A stretch of DNA of 64,000 nucleotides from Chloroflexota bacterium (GCA_016191465.1 JACPOP010000008.1:26039-90038), one strand, 5' to 3'; numbered from the stretch's first letter, positions 1,752 through 41,407 are shown. Program-made: numbers and translations. Notes: generated by a model not told the origin, from the sequence alone.

Positions 1752-2411
1752 GTGGCCGCCGCGGTTGCGAACGCGCCACACTGTCTCGGCAGGCTGCACA
1801 TGGAAACCTGGTTCGTCGGCTCCGGCCCTTCCCTTCTGGGCGCCATTGGCGTGCTCGCCACGACGTACCTGGGGATGGCCGCGGCGCGCGCCTGGATCAG
1901 CTCGGCCCTCAAACAGGCTCGGGTGGATCCCGCCACGCGGCTACTCGCGCAGCGGGTGATCACCGCTGGCATTGGTGTGTTCGGACTGTTGACGGCCTTC
2001 ACCGTGCTCGGGGTCTCCCCGGCCACAATCCTTGCGCTCCTGGGCGCCGTGGGCCTGGCGTTCAGCCTGGCCCTCCAGGACATTCTGAAGAACTTCTTCA
2101 GCGGCATGTACCTGCTGATCGAGCGGCCGTTTGGCCCCGGCGACGTCATTCGTGTGAAGGACTACCTGGGCGTGGTGGAGCATATTGGCGTGCGCACCAC
2201 CACGTTGCGCACCGCGGAGAACATCCAGGTGCTGGTGCCGAACGCTGTGGTTTTCGCGGAGGTGGTCAGTAACCACACCCTTCAGACGGGCGGGCCATCG
2301 CTGCCGGTCGCCGGGCCGCCGGCTGCCGACGCGGCCCAGACGCCCGCGCAGCCATCTGCCGTGAGCAGCTCCGCCGCGATTGTGAACGACCCGCCTGCAC
2401 CCGCCACGTGA
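1752..2411 (+). CDS. Mechanosensitive ion channel family protein (MscS-like)
   Basis: TM helices followed by the conserved MscS core (LALQDILKNFFSGMYLLIERPFGPGDVIRVKDYLGVVEHIGVRTTTLRT…NIQVLVPN). Stop overlaps the tsaE GTG start. Start may be M at 1797. Confidence 0.7.
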   Translation: MAAAVANAPHCLGRLHMETWFVGSGPSLLGAIGVLATTYLGMAAARAWISSALKQARVDPATRLLAQRVITAGIGVFGLLTAFTVLGVSPATILALLGAVGLAFSLALQDILKNFFSGMYLLIERPFGPGDVIRVKDYLGVVEHIGVRTTTLRTAENIQVLVPNAVVFAEVVSNHTLQTGGPSLPVAGPPAADAAQTPAQPSAVSSSAAIVNDPPAPAT

Positions 2412-2884
2412 TCCCTGACGCCTCGGTTCAGGTGGAGCTGGCGGATCATGCCGCTACGCGGGCGTTGGGCGAACGGGTTGCGAGAGCCGCCCTACCGGGC
2501 GACGTGTACCTGTTGACCGGGGACCTCGGAAGTGGCAAGACAACCCTTGTGCAGGGCATGGCGCGCGGGCTAGACGCCGTCGACGACGTGTCCAGTCCCA
2601 CCTTCGTCATCCAGAACCAGTACCGAACCGGGCGCTTACCCCTCTTTCACATAGACCTGTATCGACTCGAGCGGATCGAGGCGGCGTTTCTGGACGAGCT
2701 CGAGGAGGACCTCTTCGACGGGGGCGGCATGTCGGCGGTGGAGTGGCCAGAGCTCTTGCCCGAAGACCTCACGACGGGCGCGCATTGGATCGTGCTGCGG
2801 ACCTGCCCGGACGGCGGTCGGACCGCGGCTGTCCACTCGGCGGCGGTGCGCGTCCTGAATGCGGCACGCGCCACGCCGCCATGA
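2408..2884 (+). CDS. tsaE: tRNA threonylcarbamoyladenosine biosynthesis protein TsaE (P-loop ATPase)
   Basis: Walker A motif (LLTGDLGSGKTTLVQGMARGL) and YjeE-like length. GTG start overlaps the upstream stop (GTGA). Confidence 0.85.
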   Translation: MIPDASVQVELADHAATRALGERVARAALPGDVYLLTGDLGSGKTTLVQGMARGLDAVDDVSSPTFVIQNQYRTGRLPLFHIDLYRLERIEAAFLDELEEDLFDGGGMSAVEWPELLPEDLTTGAHWIVLRTCPDGGRTAAVHSAAVRVLNAARATPP

Positions 2885-3585
2885 CGCCGCCCGGGGCGGA
2901 CCGCGGCCTCATGCTGGCACTGGACACCGCGACGGCCCAGGCGAGCGTCGCCGTGCATGACGGTGGACACCTCCTGGCCGAGACCACCTGGATGGCAGGA
3001 CGCGAACACTCGGCCATGTTGATGGTGGAGGTGAGTCGCACGCTCGAACGAGCCGGCCAGAGCCGCGCGAACCTGACGGGATTGGCCGTGACGCGTGGGC
3101 CTGGCTCGTTCACGGGGGTGCGCGTCGCCCTCAGCGTCGCCAAAGGGCTGGCCGCGGGATTGGGCGTCCCGCTGTGGACGGCCACCACCCTGGAGGTCCT
3201 GGCCTATGCGGCCGGACCCGTTGACCTGCCGGTACGCGCCGCCGTGGATGCGGGAAGAGGACGAGTGGCAACAGCGCTGTTCGCGGGGGGCCACCAGGTG
3301 CAGCCCACGGTCGGCATGGCCATCGAAAACCTCGCCGCGCTGGACGTCGACGCGACGTTCCTGGTTGGGGACATCCCGCAGCGGCTGCGCGCGGTGCTGG
3401 CGGCCATGCCGCACCTTCATGTGCTGAGCGCGGCACTCTCAGCGCGCCGAGCGGGGTTGCTCGCGGAGCTTGCCTGGGCGGCGGCACGACGGGGCGAGCC
3501 GGGGGACCCGGCAACCGCGGACGCCGAGTACCTGGAGCGGCAGGGGCAGCCGGTCCAGCGGAGCGGATGGGGCCAGACGACGTAG
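2881..3585 (+). CDS. tsaB: tRNA threonylcarbamoyladenosine biosynthesis protein TsaB (YeaZ-like)
   Basis: N-terminus MLALDTATAQASVAVHDGGHLL…GPGSFTGVRVALSVAKGLA. ATG at 2881 overlaps the tsaE stop (ATGA). Confidence 0.85.
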   Translation: MTPPGADRGLMLALDTATAQASVAVHDGGHLLAETTWMAGREHSAMLMVEVSRTLERAGQSRANLTGLAVTRGPGSFTGVRVALSVAKGLAAGLGVPLWTATTLEVLAYAAGPVDLPVRAAVDAGRGRVATALFAGGHQVQPTVGMAIENLAALDVDATFLVGDIPQRLRAVLAAMPHLHVLSAALSARRAGLLAELAWAAARRGEPGDPATADAEYLERQGQPVQRSGWGQTT

Positions 3586-33222: not shown

Positions 33223-35892
33223 ATGGAAGACAGCGGCCTGTCACCGATCCGCCGGCAGTACCTGGACCTGAAGCGACGCCACCCGGACGCCATCCTGTTC
33301 TTCCGCCTCGGCGACTTCTACGAGACGTTCGAGAGCGATGCGGAGATCGCGGCTCGGGTTCTGGACCTGGCCCTGACCTCGCGAGAGATGGGCCGCGGGG
33401 AACGGTTGCCGATGGCGGGGCTGCCTGCCCACGCCGCGGAGGGCTACCTGGCGCGCCTGATCGCCGAGGGGTACCACGTCGCGTTAGCCGAGCAGGTGGG
33501 CGACGTGGTGAAAGGCGGCCTGGTGCGGCGCGAGGTAGTCCGCGTGCTCACCCCGGGCACCGTCATCGAGGACAGCTTGCTGGCGGCGGACCGCAACAAC
33601 TTCCTGGCGGCGCTGGCACTGCCAGAAGGCGGCGAACAACCAGGACGCTGCGCCGGGCTTGCCTACCTTGACGTAAGTACTGGCGACTTCTGGGCTGGAG
33701 AGCTTCCGTACACGCGTGACACGCTGGCCGCCGAGCTGACGCGGATCGGCCCCGCGGAGTGCCTGGTGCCGGAGGGCCGTCGGGCCTTCGCCGTTTCCGT
33801 GCTGCCCGACGGAGCCCACGTCACGGAGCGCGGTGCCGACCGCTTCGCGCCCAGCACGGCGAGCCGCGCGCTGGCGCGGCACTTCGGCGGCGGCGCCGAG
33901 GGCAGCGGTCTTCACGAAGCGCCGCTAGCGCTGGCCGCCGCCGGCAGCCTGGTTGCCTACGTGGCCGAGACGCGCGAAAGCGCGGTTCGCACGCTGTCGC
34001 CGCCCCGACTCTACTCCACGGCCGGCACGATGCTGCTCGATCGCGCGACACGGCGGAACCTCGACCTGTTGGACGGCGGGGGCACGGGCCTGTCGCTGGT
34101 TCGCGTGCTTGACAGAACGCGGACCTCCATGGGCGCTCGGCTGCTGCGGGCGTGGCTCGGGCAGCCGCTGCTTGACCCGGACTCGATCAATCGCCGCCTG
34201 GACGCGGTCGAGACGCTGGCGCGCCACGCCAGCGCCCGCGGACGAGTGATCGTCGCGCTCAAGGGGCTTGCCGACCTGGAGCGGCTCGGCGCTCGCGCCG
34301 GCCAGGAGGCGCTGGCGCCCCGCGAATGCCTGGCGCTGGCAGGCGCACTTGCCCGCGTGCCAGCTATCGACACCGCGCTACGCGACCTCCCGCTCGCGGC
34401 GGCGCTCGCGGATGCGCGGGCGGCTCTCGATCCCGTGGACGAAGCCACGGGCGACGTGCGCGCCCACGTTCGAGAGGGCGCGACGATTTTCGGCGAGGGC
34501 GTGGTCTTGCCGGGCGTCTCAGCCGAGCTTGACGAGCTGCGGTCGCTGGCTGGTGATGGGCGCCAGTGGATCGCGGGCCTCGAGCAGCGCGAGCGTGAGC
34601 GGTCCGGCGTTCGCGGCCTGAAGGTGGGCTTCAACAAGGTCTTTGGCTATTACCTGGAAGTCTCAGCGGCCCAGTGCGCGCAGCCAACCGATTACTACCA
34701 GCGCCAGGTGACGGGCGCGGACGCGGTGCTGCCTCACCTCGAGAAGTTGGGGTGGACCCGCAAGCAGACCGTTGCCAACGCGGAGCGCTTCGTCACGCCC
34801 GAGCTGAAGGAGATGGAGGGTCGAGTTAATCGAGCCGCCGACGAAGCGCTGCGCCTGGAGAGAACGCTGTACAACGGGCTGCTGGCGCGCCTGGCGACGC
34901 TGGCGCCGCGTATCAGCGCTACGGCGCGGGCAATTGCCAGGATCGACGTTGTAGCGAGCCTCGCCGAAGTGGCCGAGGCGAACCGTTACGTCCGTCCCGT
35001 CGTGGATGGATCCACGCGGCTGGAGATCGCGGGCGGGCGACACCCGGTGGTTGAGCAGGCGCTGCCGCCCGGCGCATTCGTGCCGAACGACACTCGCATG
35101 AACGGGGAAACGCGTACGGCACTCCTCACGGGCCCCAATATGGCCGGCAAGAGCACCTATTTGCGCCAGGTCGCGCTGATCGTGGCCATGGCGCAGTCCG
35201 GCAGCTTCGTACCCGCGGTATCGGCGGCGGTCGGCGTGGTGGACCGGATCTTCACCCGCATCGGCGCCCAGGACGATCTCGCGGCGGGTCGTAGCACGTT
35301 CATGGTGGAGATGTCTGAGGCCGCGGCCATTCTGCGGTCCGCCACCGGTCGCAGCCTGGTGATCCTGGACGAAGTGGGCCGCGGAACCAGCACGCACGAC
35401 GGGCTGTCGCTGGCTCGCGCCATCCTCGAGGATCTGCACGGCCTGGAACGGCCCGGAGGATCGCCCAAGACGCTTTTCGCCACCCACTACCACGAGCTCA
35501 CGAGCCTCGCCGAACACCTGCCGGGGGTGGAGAACTATCGCCTTGAAGTGCTGGAGCAGGGAGACGACGTGGTGTTCCTGCACAGCGTCGTGCCAGGTGG
35601 CGCGGATCGCTCGTATGGGGTCCACGTGGCGAAGCTGGCGGGAGTACCGGAACGGGTGGTCGCGCGCGCGGCCTCACTTCTGCGCGAGCTTGAAGCGACG
35701 CCGCCGGTCGCTCGCCGGGAGCAGCCTCCGCGGGCCGTGATGACTGCACCGTGTTCCGTGTGCGATGAGCTGGCGGCGCTGGAGGTGCTACAGCTCAGTC
35801 CGCTACAGGCCCAGGCTGAGCTTCACCGGTTGTGGGAGCAGGCGCGGCGCACCCTGCGCGACTTGACAGAACGTGCGTCCCGCGGTGGCTGA
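33223..35892 (+). CDS. mutS: DNA mismatch repair protein MutS
   Basis: MEDSGLSPIRRQYLDLKRRHPDAILFFRLGDFYETF… mismatch-binding N-terminus and Walker A GPNMAGKSTYLRQ. 889 aa from ATG 33223. The ORF upstream to 32287 is read-through. Confidence 0.95.
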   Translation: MEDSGLSPIRRQYLDLKRRHPDAILFFRLGDFYETFESDAEIAARVLDLALTSREMGRGERLPMAGLPAHAAEGYLARLIAEGYHVALAEQVGDVVKGGLVRREVVRVLTPGTVIEDSLLAADRNNFLAALALPEGGEQPGRCAGLAYLDVSTGDFWAGELPYTRDTLAAELTRIGPAECLVPEGRRAFAVSVLPDGAHVTERGADRFAPSTASRALARHFGGGAEGSGLHEAPLALAAAGSLVAYVAETRESAVRTLSPPRLYSTAGTMLLDRATRRNLDLLDGGGTGLSLVRVLDRTRTSMGARLLRAWLGQPLLDPDSINRRLDAVETLARHASARGRVIVALKGLADLERLGARAGQEALAPRECLALAGALARVPAIDTALRDLPLAAALADARAALDPVDEATGDVRAHVREGATIFGEGVVLPGVSAELDELRSLAGDGRQWIAGLEQRERERSGVRGLKVGFNKVFGYYLEVSAAQCAQPTDYYQRQVTGADAVLPHLEKLGWTRKQTVANAERFVTPELKEMEGRVNRAADEALRLERTLYNGLLARLATLAPRISATARAIARIDVVASLAEVAEANRYVRPVVDGSTRLEIAGGRHPVVEQALPPGAFVPNDTRMNGETRTALLTGPNMAGKSTYLRQVALIVAMAQSGSFVPAVSAAVGVVDRIFTRIGAQDDLAAGRSTFMVEMSEAAAILRSATGRSLVILDEVGRGTSTHDGLSLARAILEDLHGLERPGGSPKTLFATHYHELTSLAEHLPGVENYRLEVLEQGDDVVFLHSVVPGGADRSYGVHVAKLAGVPERVVARAASLLRELEATPPVARREQPPRAVMTAPCSVCDELAALEVLQLSPLQAQAELHRLWEQARRTLRDLTERASRGG

Positions 35893-35908
35893 CCAGCGCA
35901 TCCAGGTG

Positions 35909-37627
35909 ATGGATCCCCACCTGGCGGCAAAGATCGCCGCCGGGGAGGTGATCGAGCGTCCGGCTTCGGTGGTGAAGGAGCTTGTGGAGAACGCCCTGGA
36001 CGCGGGCGCAACCTGGGTTCGGGTGGAAGTGGAAAATGGCGGCGCCGAGCGGATTGTGGTGGCGGACGACGGCTCGGGGATTCAAGCGGAGGAGGTGGAG
36101 CTGGCGTTCCGCCGCCATGCCACGAGCAAGCTGAAGCGCGAGGCCGACCTGGACCGCCTGGTGACGCTGGGGTTCCGAGGCGAGGCGCTGCCAAGCATCG
36201 CCGCCATTGCCGACGTGGTGTGCACCACCCGCGCGAACGACGAAGCCGCAGGGACGGAGGTGCGGATTGACTCGGGCGCGTTCGAGCGACGTGCCGTGGC
36301 GCGTCAGCCAGGCACTACGTTGGAGGTGCTGGGCCTATTCTCGCGCTTCCCGGCTCGACGTAAGTTCCTGCGAACCCGATCGACGGAGGCCGCGGCCTGT
36401 CTCCAGGTGGTGGTACCGCTGGCGCTCTCGTTCGCCGAAGTACGCTTCGAGGTGCGCATCGACGGCCGCGAGGTGCTGCGGACACCGGGCCGCGGGACTC
36501 TGCGTGAAGCGGCTGCCGCCGTGCTCGGCAGCGACGCCGACGCGCACCTGCTGGAGATGAACGACGAGCTGGTGGACGACGAGGGCCGAGTGCTAGTGCG
36601 TATCCGGGGACTGTGCGGCACGGGTTCGTACCACCGCGCATCCCGTTCGGGCCAGTTCCTGCTGCTCAACCGGCGCCCCATCCAGAACCGCACCCTGGGT
36701 TTTGCCGTCCACGAGGCGTATGGCTCGCTGGTTCCCGTCGGCCGCCACCCAGTGGCGGTGGTCCAGGTGGACGTCCCACCAGACGAAGTGGACTTCAACG
36801 TCCATCCCAGCAAGCTGGAAGTGAAGCTGCTCCGGGAACGGGCTGTCTTCGGCGCGGTTCAGCGGGCGATTCGCACCACCCTGGGCAGCCAGGGTTGGAC
36901 GATTCCCACCTGGGATGCGGTGGCACCCGTGCCCGGTGCTGGCCTTGGCTGGCCGGCCGCGGGTTCGACCCTCGGGAGCGAGACCGCTGGCGAGCATAGT
37001 GGCCCTGCCGCGGGCGGCCTGCTGGTGGGCGGTGAGCAGTTGCAAGCATTGCGCGTGGTGGGCCAGGTGGGCAGCACCTACGTGGTGGCCGAAGGCGACG
37101 CGGGGGTGTACCTGGTGGACCAGCACGCCGCGCACGAACGGGTGCAACTGGAGGCGCTCCGGGCCAGCCTCGCGGGAACCGATGCGGAGCGTCAGTTGCT
37201 CCTCGAGCCGCTCGTCGTCGCCGCGCCCGCAGAGGCGGTGCTGGAGGTGGAGCGCGGGCGGCTGGAGCTGCTTCGACTTGGCTTTGATGTGCAAGCGTTC
37301 GGCGCCGACGCGCTGCTTGTGCGGGCCGTGCCGGCGCTCCTCGCGCAGCGCAACCCGGAGCGCCTCTTGGGCGAAGCCGTCACCGCGCTCGTCCGCCAGA
37401 CCCACGGGCTGGTAGCAGATCCCCAGGCAACATGGGTCGAGCGGTTGGCGCTGGTCCTGGCCTGCAAGAGCGCCGTTCGGGCCGGCGACAGCCTGGGTCG
37501 AGCAGAGATGGAAGCGCTGCTCCGCCAACTGGGCGAGACGGCCCTGTGCCGAACCTGCGCCCACGGCCGACCCACCGCGGTGCTCATGCCGTTCGCTCAA
37601 CTGGAGCGAGAGTTCGGGCGGCGGTAG
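35909..37627 (+). CDS. mutL: DNA mismatch repair protein MutL (with C-terminal endonuclease motif DQHAAHERV)
   Basis: GHKL ATPase N-terminus AAKIAAGEVIERPASVVKELVENALDAGA. The C-terminus carries DQHA(X)2E, typical of MutH-independent MutL. ATG 35909, with an alternative at 35873 overlapping mutS. Confidence 0.9.
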   Translation: MDPHLAAKIAAGEVIERPASVVKELVENALDAGATWVRVEVENGGAERIVVADDGSGIQAEEVELAFRRHATSKLKREADLDRLVTLGFRGEALPSIAAIADVVCTTRANDEAAGTEVRIDSGAFERRAVARQPGTTLEVLGLFSRFPARRKFLRTRSTEAAACLQVVVPLALSFAEVRFEVRIDGREVLRTPGRGTLREAAAAVLGSDADAHLLEMNDELVDDEGRVLVRIRGLCGTGSYHRASRSGQFLLLNRRPIQNRTLGFAVHEAYGSLVPVGRHPVAVVQVDVPPDEVDFNVHPSKLEVKLLRERAVFGAVQRAIRTTLGSQGWTIPTWDAVAPVPGAGLGWPAAGSTLGSETAGEHSGPAAGGLLVGGEQLQALRVVGQVGSTYVVAEGDAGVYLVDQHAAHERVQLEALRASLAGTDAERQLLLEPLVVAAPAEAVLEVERGRLELLRLGFDVQAFGADALLVRAVPALLAQRNPERLLGEAVTALVRQTHGLVADPQATWVERLALVLACKSAVRAGDSLGRAEMEALLRQLGETALCRTCAHGRPTAVLMPFAQLEREFGRR

Positions 37628-37775
37628 GCGCGCTGACGCTCCCGCAATCTGCAGTGCTTTCGCATTGATCGCGCTCCTCGCTTGAGGATGAGGTGCTGTG
37701 GCTTTGGGCTTCCGAGCGCCGCCAATGCGAAATGCGGAGAGTCGCGCAGGCACTCAGGTGGCGAGGCTCTCGGAT

Positions 37776-37787
37776 GGTGGAGGTGGA
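37776..37787. repeat. Direct repeat tggtggaggtgg, identical to the 3'-terminal 12 nt of the tmRNA gene at 38361-38372
   Basis: Exact 12-mer seen at both positions. The two copies bracket the HNH endonuclease gene. Confidence 0.5.
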
Positions 37788-37816
37788 GACGACCCTGACC
37801 ATGGTAGTGTCGTCTT

Positions 37817-38335
37817 GTGCGAATTTGCTCCACATGCTGCCAAGCCTTCGAGCCGTCGAGCCGACACCGTGCCTGCCCCGCGTGCCGGGCGCGCGCGGCG
37901 AAGCGTGCCTGCCCGAAGTGCGGCGCCCTTATCCAGGCGAAGTCCCGGACATGCGCTGGCTGCGTTGTCGCGCGCGATTTCAGCGGCTCGCGGAACCCAA
38001 ACTGGAAGGGTGAAGCGGCACGCCACAAGAGCTACCACGGGTATGTTTACGTGCGCCGACCAGACCACCCACGGGGCGTGAAGAACGGCGGGTATGTCTT
38101 TGAACACATCATCGTCATGGAGTCATTGCTGGGTCGCCGGTTACTGCCCAGTGAGAACGTCCACCACAAGAGTGGAGTAAAGACCGATAATCGTGCTGAG
38201 AACCTCGAGTTGTGGGTGCGTGGGCAACCAGGCGGGCAGCGGGTTGACGACGCGGTGGCTTGGGCCCTCGCCATCCTTAACCACTACGCACCGGAGCGAC
38301 TCGCTCTCAGCGCTCGATCTCAGACTTCCAAATGA
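37817..38335 (+). CDS. HNH homing-type endonuclease with N-terminal Cys-rich zinc ribbon
   Basis: HNH signature …NGGYVFEHIIVMESLLGRRLLPSENVHHKSGVKTDNRAENLELW…, typical of phage or mobile HNH nucleases. Confidence 0.8.
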   Translation: MRICSTCCQAFEPSSRHRACPACRARAAKRACPKCGALIQAKSRTCAGCVVARDFSGSRNPNWKGEAARHKSYHGYVYVRRPDHPRGVKNGGYVFEHIIVMESLLGRRLLPSENVHHKSGVKTDNRAENLELWVRGQPGGQRVDDAVAWALAILNHYAPERLALSARSQTSK

Positions 38336-38375
38336 ACGAGGCCCTGCCAATTGGCAGGGCCTCGTTCATTTGGTG
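38330..38375. terminator. 46-bp perfect palindrome (21-bp stem, AATT loop) acting as a bidirectional terminator for HNH (+) and tmRNA (-)
   Basis: ccaaatgaacgaggccctgcc-aatt-ggcagggcctcgttcatttgg read directly. Overlaps the HNH stop codon and abuts the tmRNA 3' CCA. Confidence 0.55.
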
Positions 38376-38725
38376 GAGGTGGGGGGTAATTGAAACCCCC
38401 GTCCAGGGCAGGTTGACTGGAGATGTACTACAGGCTTGTTCGGTGATTTAGCTCTTATGCCTCAGGCTCTCGCCGACAGGATCTCGAGGCACCAGCCGAG
38501 TAGTCTTTTGTGCGCCTTACCCGGCGTTCCAGCGCACAGCAACCTAACTAAGTGGCTTCAGATTCCGGCCCATCAGGTGGAGGCCGGAGTGAAGTACGCG
38601 GGGTTTAGGCCGCGTAAGCGAGTTCGCGATTGCCAGTTAATGGCGTGGTAGCGGATTTTCGAGGGAGCCACCATCCTCGGCCTGCAATCTACAGATCTTC
38701 CCCTCTGTCGAAACCTGACACCCCC
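38361..38725 (-). ncRNA. ssrA: tmRNA (transfer-messenger RNA)
   Basis: On the - strand the 5' end reads GGGGGUGUCAGGUUUCGACAGAGGGG… (the canonical tmRNA 5' tRNA-like half). The 3' end reads GGACGGGGGUUUCAAUUACCCCCCACCUCCACCA (T-arm plus acceptor plus CCA). An internal tag ORF ends …N-R-E-L-A-Y-A-A-UAA. Sits immediately downstream of smpB. Confidence 0.85.
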
Positions 38726-38836
38726 GTGCAGTGCACGCGGTGTGGGAGGGGCGTATGCCTTTTTCCAGGTGCGTTCACAGGATAGAACACTGTGCGGTCA
38801 GCGCGCATTCCTTATCTCGGGGCCGGGTCGTGAAGC

Positions 38837-39364
38837 TCAGCGCAGGCCCGATTCCTTGAGAGCCCGGTCGATCTCGCGCTTGGACTCGCGCTCACTGATG
38901 GCCTGGCGCTTGTCGTACTGCTTCTTACCTCTGGCAAGCCCGAGCTCCACCTTGATCCGGCCGCGCCGGTCGTATACGCGCAACGGCACGAGGGTGTTGC
39001 CAGACTCACCGGCCCGAGCTGCCAGCCGGCCGATCTCGCGCGTGTGGAGCAGAAGCTTGCGGGCCCGGCGCGGTTCGTGGTTCCAGATGCTGCCCTGCTC
39101 CCACGGGTAGATGTGCGCGTTCCAGAGCCAGATCTCGCCGTTCTGGGCTCGGGCGTAGGCGTCGCGGAGGTCCACGTTTCCGGCGCGAACCGATTTCACC
39201 TCGGTGCCCTGCAAGGCCAGCCCCGCCTCGATGCGTTCCAGGATGGCGTATTCGTGGAGGGCGCGCTTGTTCGAGGCGTAGGTCCGCTCGGGACGCTTCT
39301 CGGGCGCGGCAGCGGCTGAGCCACTGCCGGCCGGCTGGGTGAGAACGGTCTTACCGCGGGCCAT
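38837..39364 (-). CDS. smpB: SsrA-binding protein
   Basis: Full-length SmpB homology (…LHEYAILERIEAGLALQGTEVKSVR…IWLWNAHIYPWEQG…KLLLHTREI…). Confidence 0.9.
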   Translation of the reverse strand: MARGKTVLTQPAGSGSAAAAPEKRPERTYASNKRALHEYAILERIEAGLALQGTEVKSVRAGNVDLRDAYARAQNGEIWLWNAHIYPWEQGSIWNHEPRRARKLLLHTREIGRLAARAGESGNTLVPLRVYDRRGRIKVELGLARGKKQYDKRQAISERESKREIDRALKESGLR

Positions 39365-39520
39365 GGTCCATCCGCCGGGTGCTAGGTGCGGGCATCTGTG
39401 CTCTTACCCGCGACTCTACGCGATAGGGAGGACCGCGGAGCCCGAGAAACCGCACCCTCCTCTCGAGTGCGCGTGTGTGATGGCGCCTGGGGACGCCGGA
39501 GCCCAGGAGTGCAGTGGGAA

Positions 39521-39763
39521 TCAGCAGACCTTCGAGCTCAGGCCGGCATCCTCGCCCAGCTCGCCGGGCGTGCCGACCGGGACATCCCCCTTGCGCTCGG
39601 CCGAGGTGAGCGGATGCCTCTCCGCGCCTACCGAGCCGATGGAGCTGTGCCGAGCATGCTCGGCGTCATGAACGACGTACACGTCTTCCGTGGTGGACGC
39701 CTGCCCCGGCGCCGCGCCCGCGTCGTGCGGCTCGTGCCGGTGGGCGGACGATGAATCTGCCAT
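39521..39763 (-). CDS. Hypothetical small acidic His/Asp/Ser-rich protein (80 aa)
   Basis: ATG at 39761-39763 preceded by CAGGAGGAC (a strong RBS) at 7 nt. Composition is not the GC-driven Arg/Pro type. Lies between the integrase and smpB. No family recognised. Confidence 0.35.
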   Translation of the reverse strand: MADSSSAHRHEPHDAGAAPGQASTTEDVYVVHDAEHARHSSIGSVGAERHPLTSAERKGDVPVGTPGELGEDAGLSSKVC

Positions 39764-39810
39764 GCGGTCCTCCTGCACGCTCCGGCCGTGCAGCCGTCGT
39801 GCCATGCACG

Positions 39811-40863
39811 TCAGCCCAGATCGTGGGACGCCGCCACGCGGTGCTGGGGCAGCTCGGCCACGAGCTCTTCGGCGGTGGCACTGTAGCGGTCGAAGGCGTC
39901 GCGCAGGTGCTGCACCTGGTAGTGGGCGTAGATGCGCTTGGTGGTCTCCGGCGACGAGTGGCCGAGGATGTCCTGGACCTCAGAGAGGCTGGCCCCGCGG
40001 TTGAGCAGGACGCTGGCCTTGGCATGGCGGAAGTGGTGGGTGCTGGCCGGAACGCCAGCCGCCTTGGCGTACTGGCGCACGATGTACCAGATCGATTGTG
40101 GCGAGAGCCGCCACCGCTCGCCGCCGGGGCCGGCCGCTCGGCCACGGCGATTGTCGTGACGAAGGAAGAGCGGCTGCAGCAGGTCGTCACGGGCATTGAC
40201 ATAAGCTCGGATGGCCTCGAGCGTGGCGGCATCGAAGAACACCACCCGCTCCTTGTCGCCTTTGCCAGTGATCAACGCACGGTCGGCCCAGCCGTCGTCC
40301 AGGTCGTGGCGATCGAGCCGCGCCACCTCCTCGCGGCGCATGCCGGTGGTAAACAGGGTGAGGATGAGCGCCTTGTCCCGCAGCACTTCAAGGCGGCTGG
40401 CACCCTTCCGCAGTTGCGGATCGGGCACCGGCAGGCCCGTGACTCCCGTCACGATCAAGGGGATGCGGCGGTTGATCCGCGGCGTCTTATAGCCGCCGCG
40501 GCCCATCGCCTCACGCAGGATGGACTGCATCTGCTCGTAGCTGACACTCGGCGCCAGCAAGGCTCGCCGGGCGAGGAACCGCACGAACGCTCGTGCCGCC
40601 GAGAGGTAGGTGACCACCGTCGCACGATGGCTCCGACCGTGCGCTTTGACCAACCAGGCGTAGAACTCCTCGAGGGAGGTACCGGTGAGCTGCTCGGGGC
40701 GCCAGGTTTCCAGCGGCCCGTGGCGCGCCGTCAGGAAAGCGTTGAACCGGTTGAGACCGGTCGCATAGGTGGCCGTGGTCTTCGGGGACTTCCCCGCCAG
40801 CGAGGTGGCGAACTCCCGTTGCAGGGCGAACAACAGCAGGCTCTCGCGCTCCTCGGCAGGCAC
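39811..40863 (-). CDS. Tyrosine site-specific recombinase / integrase (XerC/XerD-phage integrase family)
   Basis: SAM-like core-binding domain (ESLLLFALQREFATSLAGKSPKTTATYATGLNRF) and catalytic domain with R…HxxR…Y (GMRREEVARL; THHFRHAKAS; RIYAHY). Start uncertain: GTG ~40863 suggested, and the track ORF extends to 41136. Confidence 0.85.
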   Translation of the reverse strand: MPAEERESLLLFALQREFATSLAGKSPKTTATYATGLNRFNAFLTARHGPLETWRPEQLTGTSLEEFYAWLVKAHGRSHRATVVTYLSAARAFVRFLARRALLAPSVSYEQMQSILREAMGRGGYKTPRINRRIPLIVTGVTGLPVPDPQLRKGASRLEVLRDKALILTLFTTGMRREEVARLDRHDLDDGWADRALITGKGDKERVVFFDAATLEAIRAYVNARDDLLQPLFLRHDNRRGRAAGPGGERWRLSPQSIWYIVRQYAKAAGVPASTHHFRHAKASVLLNRGASLSEVQDILGHSSPETTKRIYAHYQVQHLRDAFDRYSATAEELVAELPQHRVAASHDLG

Positions 40864-41020
40864 ATCTCCGATGCTAGGGCGGGTTCTCGCCGAGAGGGGC
40901 AATCCCGAGTTGCGTTTGGAGCACGGTCCGGACCTGTCCGTACACGCTGCGACACCTGGAGTTGGCGAGCAGGTACTCGGCGCCGTGCCATGGCTCGCGC
41001 GATGCCCGCGCAGATTCGGA

Positions 41021-41407
41021 TCAGGCGAGCGGGATGTCCGTCTTCGGGAAGTCATCGCCTTTTGCGAGGAGTGGTTCGCGGGCGATGCGAGCTGCGGCGT
41101 AGGCGAGGCAGTCCCCGAAGTTGAGGCCGGCGGCATGGCGCCCCTCGCCGAAGCGCCACCATGCCGACACAGCCTCCTGCCAGTGCTGAGGCCCGAACTC
41201 GATCACGACGGCGTCCATCGTGGCGACGAGGTGAGCGAGCAGGGCCGACGCATCCAGGCCCATGCGCGACGAGAGCACGAGCCCTGCTTCCACCAGGGTC
41301 GGCGCACCCACCGCAACGGTGTGCGCGGTGCTGATCCGGGCGATGAAGGTATCCCGCTCGGGTTCATCCAGCATGATCGCCACGAGCACGGACGTATCCA
41401 GGATCAC
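41021..41407 (-). CDS. vapC: PIN-domain ribonuclease toxin VapC (copy 1)
   Basis: PIN acidic residues (VILDTSVLVA…; …NFGDCLAYAAA…). GTG start overlaps the vapB stop by 4 nt (GTGA). Confidence 0.8.
   Translation of the reverse strand: MILDTSVLVAIMLDEPERDTFIARISTAHTVAVGAPTLVEAGLVLSSRMGLDASALLAHLVATMDAVVIEFGPQHWQEAVSAWWRFGEGRHAAGLNFGDCLAYAAARIAREPLLAKGDDFPKTDIPLA

What the first reader, a model, noticed from the sequence alone, without database searches (positions are those of the whole stretch)
37776..38372. HNH endonuclease cassette bracketed by 12-bp direct repeats of the tmRNA 3' terminus (mini-island at ssrA)
The sequence tggtggaggtgg, the reverse complement of the tmRNA 3' end CCACCUCCACCA, occurs twice. 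One copy sits at the tmRNA 3' end (38361-38372). The other is 573 bp away at 37776-37787. The only gene between them is a stand-alone HNH homing-type endonuclease, which ends in a 46-bp perfect palindrome. tmRNA 3' ends are classic attB sites, and integration regenerates the terminal nucleotides as a direct repeat. This therefore looks like a tiny integrated or remnant element made only of an HNH nuclease. Alternatively it is an HNH homing element that targets the tmRNA gene end.
Basis: partly seen in the sequence, partly recalled or inferred. Interest (0 to 1): 0.6.

Follow-up and report, generated by a model that had tools for sequence, protein, structure and literature searches.

The report
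HNH nuclease cassette at tmRNA gene end
A 0.6-kb one-gene DNA cassette encoding an HNH nuclease sits exactly at the 3' end of the tmRNA gene, and the same cassette recurs at that spot in hundreds of bacterial species, so it is most likely a small mobile 'homing' element that targets this conserved gene end.

Summary
TGGTGGAGGTGG occurs exactly twice in the window. One copy is the tmRNA 3' end including CCA (38371-38382). The other lies 596 bp away (37775-37786), 30 nt upstream of an intact zinc-ribbon/HNH_3 gene (37817-38335). A 46-bp perfect palindrome (38328-38373) joins the HNH stop codon to the tmRNA CCA.

The cassette is not peculiar to this genome. Among the 80 best genomic homologues, 60 are convergent with a tmRNA gene and end 13-160 bp (370 bp in one locus, L089) from its 3' end. 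Four lie in tandem just after a tmRNA gene, and at least 7 are followed by a partial tmRNA 3' fragment. The phyla include Actinomycetota, Chloroflexota, Dormibacterota and candidate-phyla-radiation (CPR) lineages, plus one phage-borne tmRNA.

Two near-identical actinobacterial contigs differ by a ~593-bp HNH cassette indel that starts directly after the tmRNA discriminator base. Far-side copies of the tmRNA terminus recur in 5 of 68 loci (expected 0.5, P about 1.5e-4).

The best explanation is a free-standing HNH homing cassette that targets the ssrA terminus and supplies a replacement 3' end. No integrase is involved. The nuclease activity and its target are inferred, not shown. I found no published description of such a cassette.

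The parts
37775..37786 (+). Distal 12-nt copy of the tmRNA 3' terminus (antisense of CCACCUCCACCA). It marks the far boundary of the cassette and is interpreted as the displaced original terminus, or junction scar.
   Evidence: Exact match. It lies 30 nt upstream of the HNH start. Equivalent far-side copies occur in L018, L051, L063 and L092.
37787..37816 (+). 30-nt leader between the distal repeat and the HNH start codon. It has an in-frame stop at 37805-37807. No sigma-70-like promoter, SOS box or CGCGTGACG repeats were found.
37817..38335 (+). Intact 172-aa gene with a GTG start. It has an N-terminal double zinc ribbon (8 Cys), an HNH_3 nuclease domain and a C-terminal helical tail.
   Evidence: Pfam HNH_3 at 9e-7 (28.8 bits; cut-off 24.8) and DZR at 8.5e-4. 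phrog_20891 at 4e-40. All residues invariant in the family are present. AF2 model pLDDT 88.6. GC3 is 0.71 against 0.81-0.85 in neighbouring genes.
38328..38373 (.). 46-bp perfect palindrome (21-bp stem, AAUU loop). It overlaps the HNH stop codon and the tmRNA CCA. It is probably a bidirectional terminator-like hairpin for the two convergent genes.
   Evidence: I1. Folds (-44 and -46 kcal/mol, z = -10 and -8). Not flagged by the strict T-run terminator scan.
38371..38725 (-). tmRNA gene (ssrA), tag GNRELAYAA, with CCA encoded. Its last 12 nt (38371-38382 on the + strand) are the proximal copy of the repeat.
   Evidence: ARAGORN. Rfam RF00023 at 152.4 bits, model positions 1-374.
38837..39364 (-). 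smpB, the partner gene of tmRNA, upstream of ssrA. Context only, not part of the cassette.
   Evidence: Pfam SmpB at 2.8e-57
35873..37627 (+). mutL, the core gene that forms the far flank of the cassette. Context only.
   Evidence: Pfam MutL_C, DNA_mis_repair and HATPase_c_3. The mutL-ssrA neighbourhood is shared with L178 and the P0119 contig, but the intervening content differs.

Best explanation
The segment 37775-38370 is a single-gene mobile cassette. It is a free-standing HNH (zinc-ribbon + HNH_3) homing-type endonuclease gene whose home is the 3' end of the tmRNA gene.

Proposed mechanism:
1. The nuclease recognises and cuts or nicks tmRNA gene ends that lack the cassette, near the T-stem/acceptor-stem boundary.
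2. The break is repaired from a cassette-bearing copy, which copies the cassette in.
3. The cassette brings its own replacement for the last ~11 nt of the tmRNA gene plus a terminator hairpin, so ssrA stays functional.
4. The original terminal nucleotides (acceptor 3' strand + A + CCA) are left as a short direct repeat at the far side.

Shown here:
- The cassette's anatomy.
- Its near-invariant position at ssrA 3' ends across phyla, in both orientations.
- A clean presence/absence polymorphism at that exact position.
- Recurrence of far-side terminal copies.
- Purifying selection on the gene.

Inferred:
- That the HNH protein itself makes the targeting cut.
- Where the cut falls.
- That repair-mediated copying, rather than a recombinase acting in trans, moves the cassette.
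For: 1. Position.
- Of the 80 best genomic homologues, 60 are convergent with a full tmRNA gene and end 13-160 bp (370 bp in L089) from its 3' end.
- Four (CPR-like) start 43-50 bp after a tmRNA 3' end on the same strand.
- Six are followed by trailer plus a 22-27-nt tmRNA 3' fragment. L046 has a degenerate fragment, and the L086 contig ends inside the tmRNA end.
- The distal flanks differ between loci: mutL here, DUF3817 and an oxidoreductase elsewhere.
- One viral contig (L092) has the HNH beside a phage-borne tmRNA.

2. Indel.
- L182 and L183/L184 encode the same SmpB protein and are 96% identical in DNA.
- They differ by a ~593-bp HNH cassette that begins directly after the tmRNA discriminator base.

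3. Far-side copies.
- The idealised 11-mer (acceptor 3' strand + A + CCA) occurs at 1 mismatch or fewer within 400 nt of the far end in 5 of 68 loci.
- These are WIN, L018, L051 and L063 (exact) and L092 (1 mismatch).
- The control gave 8 hits in 436 kb, so 0.49 were expected and P = 1.5e-4.
- Each copy matches its own lineage's acceptor sequence and starts at or near the T-stem/acceptor boundary.

4. The proximal boundary belongs to the cassette.
- HNH-linked actinobacterial tmRNA genes share the trailer ..CCTCCA|AGAGTGCTCA...
- HNH-less alleles have other trailers.

5. The protein is an HNH nuclease and is kept functional.
- Pfam and PHROG hits and conserved catalytic residues.
- The ORF is intact in 62 of 63 loci.
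- dN/dS is 0.07-0.22 in 11 close pairs.
- Decay and loss also occur, as expected of homing elements: a frameshift in L182, a premature stop in L067, and a deletion in L178 that leaves 12 C-terminal codons.

6. The window copy looks like a separate or recent arrival.
- GC3 is 0.71 against 0.81-0.85 in neighbours.
- It lacks the small ORF and the CGCGTGACG repeats seen in clade relatives.
- Its protein is no closer to clade relatives (50-60%) than to actinobacterial copies (60%).
- Both its palindrome and its 12/12 repeat are perfect.
Against: - No cleavage activity or target has been shown.
- Most loci (63 of 68) have no recognisable far-side copy. The L182/L183 indel shows no clear repeat at its far junction.
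- The cassette is clade-wide in the window's relatives. HNH identity tracks tmRNA identity (rho = 0.43). This fits long vertical residence as well as it fits homing.
- Strong purifying selection over dS of 0.5-1 is unusual for a purely selfish homing gene and may mean a host-level function.
- In L018, L051 and L063 the far-side copy has CCA although the functional gene there does not encode it. This needs an extra assumption.
- Structure search gave only a non-significant resemblance to I-HmuI (probability 0.75, E = 1).
Confidence: 0.55

Rival explanations
1. Domesticated or host-beneficial nuclease tied to the ssrA locus. The HNH gene would be a long-term resident that is kept by selection. 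One possible role is a DNA-damage-induced nuclease that attacks phages or islands using the ssrA 3' end as their attachment site, or that competes with them for the site. In that case its position reflects an ancient insertion, not ongoing mobility.
For: - dN/dS is 0.07-0.22 and the ORF is intact in 62 of 63 loci.
- The gene is clade-wide in the window's relatives.
- HNH and tmRNA divergence are correlated.
- An SOS-box-like TCGAAC-N4-GTTCGA sits at a fixed -29..-36 in 15 of 63 loci, against 23 of 2145 control windows at 10/12 and none at 11 or more.
- Other DNA has repeatedly inserted at the same tmRNA end.
Against: - A host function gives no reason for the gene to sit at the ssrA 3' end in both orientations, in four phyla and in a phage.
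- A presence/absence polymorphism exists between 96%-identical genomes.
- Frameshifted or deleted copies exist.
- PADLOC gives only marginal ZorE-type HNH motif hits (E about 1e-3, 18 residues).
- Insertions still occur at HNH-bearing loci.
- The window copy has no SOS box.
Confidence: 0.2
2. Integrase-made mini-island, or remnant of one. A tyrosine integrase acting in trans, or since lost, recombined at the last ~11-12 nt of ssrA. That would regenerate the gene end and leave the displaced terminus as attR, with the HNH gene as the only surviving cargo.
For: - The geometry is exactly that of tmRNA-gene islands: a restored gene plus a displaced 3' fragment in direct orientation downstream (principle as stated in PMC4383910).
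- The ssrA end is clearly a recombination hot spot in these lineages.
Against: - There is no integrase in the 596 bp.
- The nearby tyrosine recombinase is on the 5' side of smpB-ssrA. It is syntenic with smpB in relatives irrespective of the ssrA context.
- More than 60 independent loci have the same ~0.6-kb single-gene unit, which decay of larger islands would not produce.
- The identity block is only 8-12 nt.
Confidence: 0.1
3. The 12-nt repeat in the window is a chance match. The HNH cassette would still be real, but nothing would mark its insertion here.
For: - The word is G-rich and of a type that is enriched in this genome. One-mismatch copies occur at 3023 and, inside mutL, at 37239.
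- An unanchored search of tmRNA against the window gives E = 1.1 for a 12-mer.
- The clade relatives lack such a repeat.
Against: - Only 0.01 exact copies are expected per window.
- The match is anchored at the terminus, in direct orientation, and 30 nt outside the HNH start.
- No anchored run of 10 nt or more occurs in 815 kb of control sequence.
- The same kind of copy appears at the far boundary in four other loci (P = 1.5e-4).
Confidence: 0.1

Closest known systems
Free-standing homing endonuclease genes of T4-like phages: SegB (GIY-YIG, in the tRNA gene cluster) and MobE (HNH)
   Same: - A stand-alone endonuclease gene lying between conserved genes, not inside an intron or intein.
- SegB sits among tRNA genes and drives preferential inheritance of that region (PMC2330249). 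MobE is an HNH-family example (PMC2790892).
- The cassette here likewise abuts a tRNA-like gene end and shows presence/absence polymorphism.
   Different: - Those are phage genes that act in mixed infections. This cassette is chromosomal in bacteria of several phyla.
- It targets the tmRNA gene terminus specifically.
- It appears to carry a replacement gene end and sometimes leaves an 11-15-nt terminal duplicate.
- No activity has been shown.
Integrase-borne genomic islands and prophages in tmRNA genes (Islander-type)
   Same: - Same target gene and same end.
- The gene is regenerated and the displaced 3' fragment lies as a direct repeat at the far boundary (PMC4383910).
   Different: - No integrase.
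- 0.6 kb with one gene.
- Identity block of only 8-12 nt at the extreme terminus.
[quoted passage not shown]
   Same: A homing-type mobile element that exploits the conserved tRNA-like 3' domain of ssrA (PMC11915505).
   Different: - Those interrupt the T-loop and are spliced out. Here the tmRNA gene is contiguous (Rfam positions 1-374).
- The nuclease here is HNH, not LAGLIDADG, and lies outside the gene.
HNH endonuclease genes inside large tRNA gene arrays of mycobacteria and phages
   Same: - An HNH gene embedded among tRNA-type genes and regarded as a marker of horizontal transfer (PMC6582537, PMC9569102).
- A 60%-identical homologue (P0003, L002) sits in a 26-tRNA array.
   Different: Those papers do not describe linkage to the tmRNA gene end, a defined insertion point or terminal duplicates.
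I-HmuI (HNH nicking homing endonuclease of phage SPO1; PDB 1u3e)
   Same: Best meaningful structural neighbour of the model's HNH core (72 columns, rmsd 3.6 A, probability 0.75).
   Different: - The match is not significant (E = 1).
- I-HmuI is intron-encoded and lacks the N-terminal double zinc ribbon.

Membership tests
HNH_3 / beta-beta-alpha-metal nucleases | Sequence match to the family model above the curated threshold | tested here: met
   Pfam PF13392 at 28.8 bits against a cut-off of 24.8. phrog_20891 'HNH endonuclease' at 4e-40.
HNH_3 / beta-beta-alpha-metal nucleases | Conserved catalytic His/Asn motif | tested here: met
   H116-H117, N119, D124-N125 and N129 are invariant or nearly invariant in the 24-sequence alignment and are present in the window protein.
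HNH_3 / beta-beta-alpha-metal nucleases | beta-beta-alpha fold similar to solved HNH nucleases | tested here: inconclusive
HNH_3 / beta-beta-alpha-metal nucleases | Metal-dependent DNA cleavage | not testable with these tools
   Needs biochemistry.
Free-standing homing endonuclease gene | Same insertion position next to a conserved target in unrelated genomic backgrounds | tested here: met
   At least 71 of 80 loci are linked to a tmRNA 3' end, with differing distal flanks and both orientations.
Free-standing homing endonuclease gene | Presence/absence polymorphism at that site between close relatives | tested here: met
   L182 (filled) against L183/L184 (empty): 96% identical, ~593-bp indel. 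Not found for the window's own species. Its clade relatives are filled, or deleted as in L178.
Free-standing homing endonuclease gene | The endonuclease cleaves the allele that lacks it and spares its own | not testable with these tools
   No biochemical or genetic data.
Free-standing homing endonuclease gene | Co-conversion of flanking sequence | tested here: inconclusive
   HNH-linked actinobacterial tmRNA genes share a CCA-less end and the trailer AGAGTGCTCA. That could be co-conversion or common descent.
Integrase-type genomic island in a tmRNA gene | Integrase gene inside the element | tested here: not met
   The only credible ORF between the repeats is the HNH gene. The tyrosine recombinase at 39811-41136 is outside the element, on the 5' side, and syntenic in relatives.
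Integrase-type genomic island in a tmRNA gene | Regenerated gene plus displaced 3' fragment as a direct repeat at the far end | tested here: met
   12-nt copies at 38371-38382 and 37775-37786 in direct orientation.
Group I intron in the tmRNA T-loop | Intervening sequence inside the T-psi-C loop | tested here: not met
   The tmRNA aligns end to end with RF00023 (positions 1-374) without an insertion of that kind. No intron family matched in 36500-40000.
Transposon / insertion sequence with target-site duplication | Transposase and terminal inverted repeats | tested here: not met
   No transposase. The only strong inverted repeat is the internal 46-bp palindrome, not the element ends. In most loci the proximal copy lacks the CCA that the distal copy has, so this is not a simple duplication.

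The most novel reading that the evidence does not exclude
The cassette is more than a selfish homing gene. It would be a nuclease that polices the ssrA attachment site, kept by selection and, in many Actinomycetota, controlled by LexA. Any DNA that carries a tmRNA 3' end without the cassette's own trailer resembles its target. That includes phage or island attP sites and freshly formed att junctions. The nuclease would therefore cut elements that integrate at ssrA, for example when the SOS response induces them. This would be a defence or competition system defined by a genomic position rather than by an operon.
Probability: 0.1. Interest if true: 0.8.

Novelty: new variant of a known kind. 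Interest (0 to 1): 0.6.

Why it matters
The tmRNA gene is known as a landing site for integrase-borne islands and for group I introns. A protein-only, one-gene HNH cassette that occupies the very end of ssrA in hundreds of species would be a third kind of mobile element at this gene. At least 513 homologous loci were found in the GTDB species set, and about 90% of the 80 examined were tmRNA-linked.

If the nuclease really recognises the conserved tRNA-like terminus, three things follow:
- It offers natural endonucleases with a target present in nearly all bacteria.
- It explains a recurrent 'hypothetical protein' next to ssrA.
- It gives a tractable case of how a homing gene can sit inside an essential RNA gene's end by carrying a surrogate end.

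The SOS-box association and the strong purifying selection also raise a testable question. Is such a cassette purely selfish, or does it take part in the traffic at the ssrA attachment site?

Tried and rejected
- **SmpB-based search for empty sites near the window's own species.** The closest relatives with DNA (L171-L175) do not have ssrA next to smpB. The one syntenic contig (P0119: smpB, gap, 3 genes, mutL, mutS) had no DNA available.
- **Metagenome scan with a clade-specific tmRNA pattern.** It gave only 6 loci. All were filled, deleted (L178) or cut at the tmRNA end (L177), so there is no pristine empty site for the window's clade.
- **Terminator and promoter consensus scan.** It flags neither the palindrome nor a promoter for the HNH gene.
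- **NCBIfam.** No family.
- **PADLOC.** Only 18-residue HNH-motif hits to ZorE, not evidence of a defence system.
- **The idea that the 'tmRNA fragment after HNH' loci were split by integrase islands.** I could not find an integrase within the 4 kb available; only SDR and GGDEF-type genes appeared. I therefore claim only that other DNA has inserted there.
- **The alternative ORF across the distal repeat (37693-38013, 'MVEVETT...').** It has no family match and overlaps the HNH gene in another frame. Rejected as a gene.
- **A 35-kb island ending at the 11-nt anchored copy at 3023-3033.** Rejected because the interval contains mutS and mutL, and 11-mers occur at the chance rate.

Full report
**1. 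What is in the window**

ARAGORN and Rfam agree on a full-length tmRNA gene on the minus strand at 38371-38725. Its tag is GNRELAYAA and it scores 152 bits over model positions 1-374. Upstream of it lies smpB (38837-39364). Beyond smpB lies a tyrosine recombinase (39811-41136).

Downstream of the tmRNA 3' end, on the opposite strand, lies a 172-aa ORF (37817-38335, GTG start). It has:
- an N-terminal double zinc ribbon with eight Cys;
- an HNH_3 domain (Pfam 28.8 bits against a cut-off of 24.8);
- a strong match to a phage HNH family (phrog_20891, 4e-40).

Then comes mutL (35873-37627).

The 12-mer TGGTGGAGGTGG occurs exactly twice in the window:
- at 38371-38382, as the antisense of the tmRNA end CCACCUCCACCA with CCA encoded;
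- at 37775-37786, 30 nt upstream of the HNH start.

The spacing is 596 bp, not 573.

A 46-bp perfect palindrome (38328-38373) overlaps the HNH stop codon and the tmRNA CCA. It folds into a 21-bp hairpin of -44 kcal/mol with z = -10. The strict consensus scan did not call it a terminator.

**2. Is the repeat more than chance?**

Shuffles give 0.01 exact copies per window. There are two caveats:
- The word is G-rich and resembles coding sequence. Two further 1-mismatch copies exist against 0.39 expected.
- Comparing the whole tmRNA with the whole window makes one 12-nt match unsurprising (E = 1.1).

The improbable part is the combination of three features. The match is anchored at the very terminus, in direct orientation, and just outside the HNH gene. 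In 815 kb of control sequence from related loci, no terminus-anchored run reached 10 nt.

**3. The cassette is a family-wide feature of ssrA ends**

The HNH protein has many homologues. Two of them, on long contigs (L009, L010), turned out to lie convergent with a tmRNA gene next to smpB, with unrelated distal flanks.

A scan of one genome per GTDB species found at least 513 homologous loci. Of the best 80:
- 60 have the gene convergent with a full tmRNA gene, ending 13-160 bp (370 bp in one locus, L089) from its 3' end.
- 4 CPR-like loci have it in tandem, 43-50 bp after a tmRNA 3' end.
- 6 have the gene followed by the usual trailer and a 22-27-nt tmRNA 3' fragment, with other DNA inserted beyond it.
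- L046 has a degenerate fragment, with the real tmRNA 0.6 kb further on.
- The L086 contig ends inside the tmRNA end.
- 6 abut a tRNA-His gene.
- 2 show no tmRNA fragment: L071 keeps only the usual trailer after the HNH gene, and L080 has no tRNA-type neighbour at all.

The hosts are mostly Actinomycetota. They also include Chloroflexota (L011), Dormibacterota (L059), a Burkholderiales-labelled MAG (L013) and CPR lineages. One viral contig (L092) has the gene beside a phage-borne tmRNA within a tRNA cluster. A 60%-identical homologue sits in a 26-tRNA array.

**4. It behaves as a discrete indel**

L182 and L183/L184 encode the identical SmpB protein and are 96% identical in DNA. L182 carries a ~593-bp HNH cassette that starts directly after the tmRNA discriminator base (..CCGCCACCTCCA|AGAGGGCTCA..). 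L183 and L184 continue there with ..CCTCCA|CGACTCGCCTTACAG.. and rejoin the L182 sequence at TACAG.

The L182 copy carries a frameshift. Other signs of decay are a premature stop in L067 and L178. In L178, only about 12 C-terminal codons (AREILVRYEN) survive between a small ORF and the tmRNA terminator.

The proximal boundary belongs to the cassette. HNH-linked actinobacterial tmRNA genes lack an encoded CCA and share the trailer AGAGTGCTCA plus a hairpin. HNH-less alleles have other trailers, and either lack CCA (L183, L186, L046) or encode it (L187/L188).

Between related loci, homology typically begins 30-40 bp upstream of the HNH start codon. That is exactly where the window's distal 12-mer lies.

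**5. Far-side copies recur**

I ran a uniform test on 68 loci. The query was each locus's own acceptor 3' strand + A + CCA, with at most 1 mismatch, searched within 400 nt of the cassette's far end.

This gave 5 hits: WIN, L018, L051 and L063 (exact) and L092 (1 mismatch). The control gave 8 hits in 436 kb, so 0.49 were expected (P = 1.5e-4).

The copies are 11, 11, 12 and 15 nt long. Each matches its own lineage's acceptor sequence (CACCUCC, CAGCUCC, CAUCUCC). Each begins at or just inside the T-stem/acceptor boundary. In L063 the cassette is in the tandem orientation, and the copy lies after the HNH stop, again on the far side.

These copies look like junction scars of an insertion about 11 nt from the mature 3' end, with the cassette supplying a replacement end. 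Most loci have lost the scar.

**6. Selection and history**

- The ORF is intact in 62 of 63 loci.
- dN/dS is 0.07-0.22 in 11 close pairs.
- HNH identity correlates with tmRNA identity (rho = 0.43).

The window's Chloroflexota relatives (L011, L176, L179-L181) all carry the gene at this site. They have three CGCGTGACG repeats upstream, and in some a small ORF as well. The window lacks both.

The window copy also differs in other ways:
- Its GC3 is 0.71 against 0.81-0.85 in neighbouring genes.
- Its protein is no closer to its clade's copies (50-60%) than to actinobacterial ones (60%).
- Its palindrome and its 12/12 repeat are both perfect.

I read this as a more recent arrival or replacement in a lineage where the site has long been occupied. 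That is an inference.

**7. Mechanism**

The most economical reading is a free-standing HNH homing cassette specific for the ssrA terminus:
1. The nuclease cuts cassette-free ends.
2. Repair copies the cassette in.
3. The cassette's own acceptor strand and hairpin keep the tmRNA functional.
4. The old terminus remains as a short repeat.

Position, the indel, the scars and the decay cycle are shown. The cut and the copying are inferred (confidence 0.55).

Rivals:
- **A domesticated, possibly SOS-controlled nuclease (0.2).** This is favoured by the purifying selection and by an SOS-box-like TCGAAC-N4-GTTCGA at -29..-36 in 15 of 63 loci. The window copy has no such box.
- **An integrase-made mini-island (0.1).** The geometry fits. 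However, there is no integrase, and more than 60 independent loci share the single-gene unit.
- **Chance for the window's repeat (0.1).**

**8. Relation to what is known**

The literature I could search describes the following:
- tmRNA genes as sites for integrase islands (PMC4383910);
- group I introns in the tmRNA T-loop, a few with LAGLIDADG genes (PMC11915505);
- HNH genes within tRNA arrays (PMC6582537, PMC9569102);
- free-standing homing genes such as SegB in the T4 tRNA cluster and MobE (PMC2330249, PMC2790892).

I found no description of a free-standing HNH cassette at the ssrA 3' end. The library is incomplete, so this is absence of evidence only.

I class the cassette as a new variant of a known kind, namely a free-standing homing endonuclease gene. 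Its new features are a new target, an apparent surrogate gene end and occasional terminal duplicates.

**9. Verdict**

The integrase/attB reading fails its defining test. The wider pattern is more interesting than the single instance. Interest 0.6.

Noticed in passing
L025, L051, L012, L014, L029, L034, L040, L042, L060 and others, -29..-36 from the HNH start: An SOS-box-like palindrome TCGAAC-N4-GTTCGA sits at a fixed position upstream of the HNH gene in 15 of 63 loci at 10/12 or better (2 perfect). Control windows gave 23 of 2145 at 10/12 and none at 11 or more. It matches actinobacterial LexA boxes listed in PMC9380542. The window copy has none.
   Followed up: partly
L011 270-320; L179 50-115; L180 (minus strand) 965-915; L181 (minus strand) 960-915: The window's Chloroflexota relatives have three direct repeats of CGCGTGACG immediately upstream of the HNH start. 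This is an operator-like array absent from the window copy.
   Followed up: no
L035 4380-4520 and 7400-7540; L041, L066, L070, L076, L081 just after the HNH gene: The HNH gene plus trailer is followed by only the last 22-27 nt of a tmRNA (T-loop to end). After that comes a conserved sequence (..TGACCGG.AATTCGGTGTCTTTTCTG..) and unrelated genes. In L035 the real tmRNA lies 3 kb on and is preceded by a ~120-bp duplicate of the HNH C-terminus. Other DNA has inserted into the tmRNA end after the HNH cassette. No integrase was seen in the 4 kb available.
   Followed up: partly
L021 vs L060, about 2000-3100 of the extracted regions: The ~1.1-kb block [HNH + tmRNA + ~85 nt upstream of tmRNA] is inverted relative to both flanks between two related actinobacterial genomes.
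   Followed up: partly
L056, L068, L078, L084, L085, L087: In six loci (Levybacteria and MAGs labelled Gammaproteobacteria) the HNH gene's 3' end abuts or overlaps the 5' end of a tRNA-His gene on the same strand, instead of a tmRNA.
   Followed up: no
L018 3916-3926; L051 3764-3778; L063 4503-4513: The far-side copies of the tmRNA terminus include CCA, although the functional tmRNA gene in those loci does not encode CCA. Either the pre-insertion gene encoded CCA, or the copy comes from a CCA-bearing source (a donor allele or mature RNA).
   Followed up: partly
L181 (minus strand) about 415-375: TGGTGGAGGC occurs twice 25 nt apart: once at the tmRNA end and once in the trailer between the HNH stop and the tmRNA. 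This is another short duplicate of the terminus.
   Followed up: no
window 39811-41136 (-): A 441-aa tyrosine recombinase (Phage_integrase + SAM-like domains) lies just upstream of smpB. The same gene-smpB pairing is seen in L001, L172/L173 and the P0119 contig. It therefore looks like a conserved Xer-like neighbour, not an island integrase.
   Followed up: partly
window 38383-38405 (tmRNA T-arm): The tmRNA T-loop is 9 nt (GGGGG-UUUCAAUUA-CCCCC), with two insertions relative to the Rfam consensus.
   Followed up: no
window 37658-37732: An imperfect 19-nt inverted repeat (84% complementary, 37-nt spacer) lies in the mutL-HNH spacer, between the mutL stop and the distal 12-mer. It may be the mutL terminator or the old ssrA-side terminator.
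   Followed up: no
L001 792-1447 (same genome as the window, Logan contig SRR12113392_107061): A PSK_trans_fac/PIN toxin-antitoxin-like pair lies upstream of the recombinase-smpB block. That contig ends 27 nt beyond the tmRNA 3' end, and contig L177 likewise begins about 10 nt before a tmRNA 3' end.
   Followed up: no
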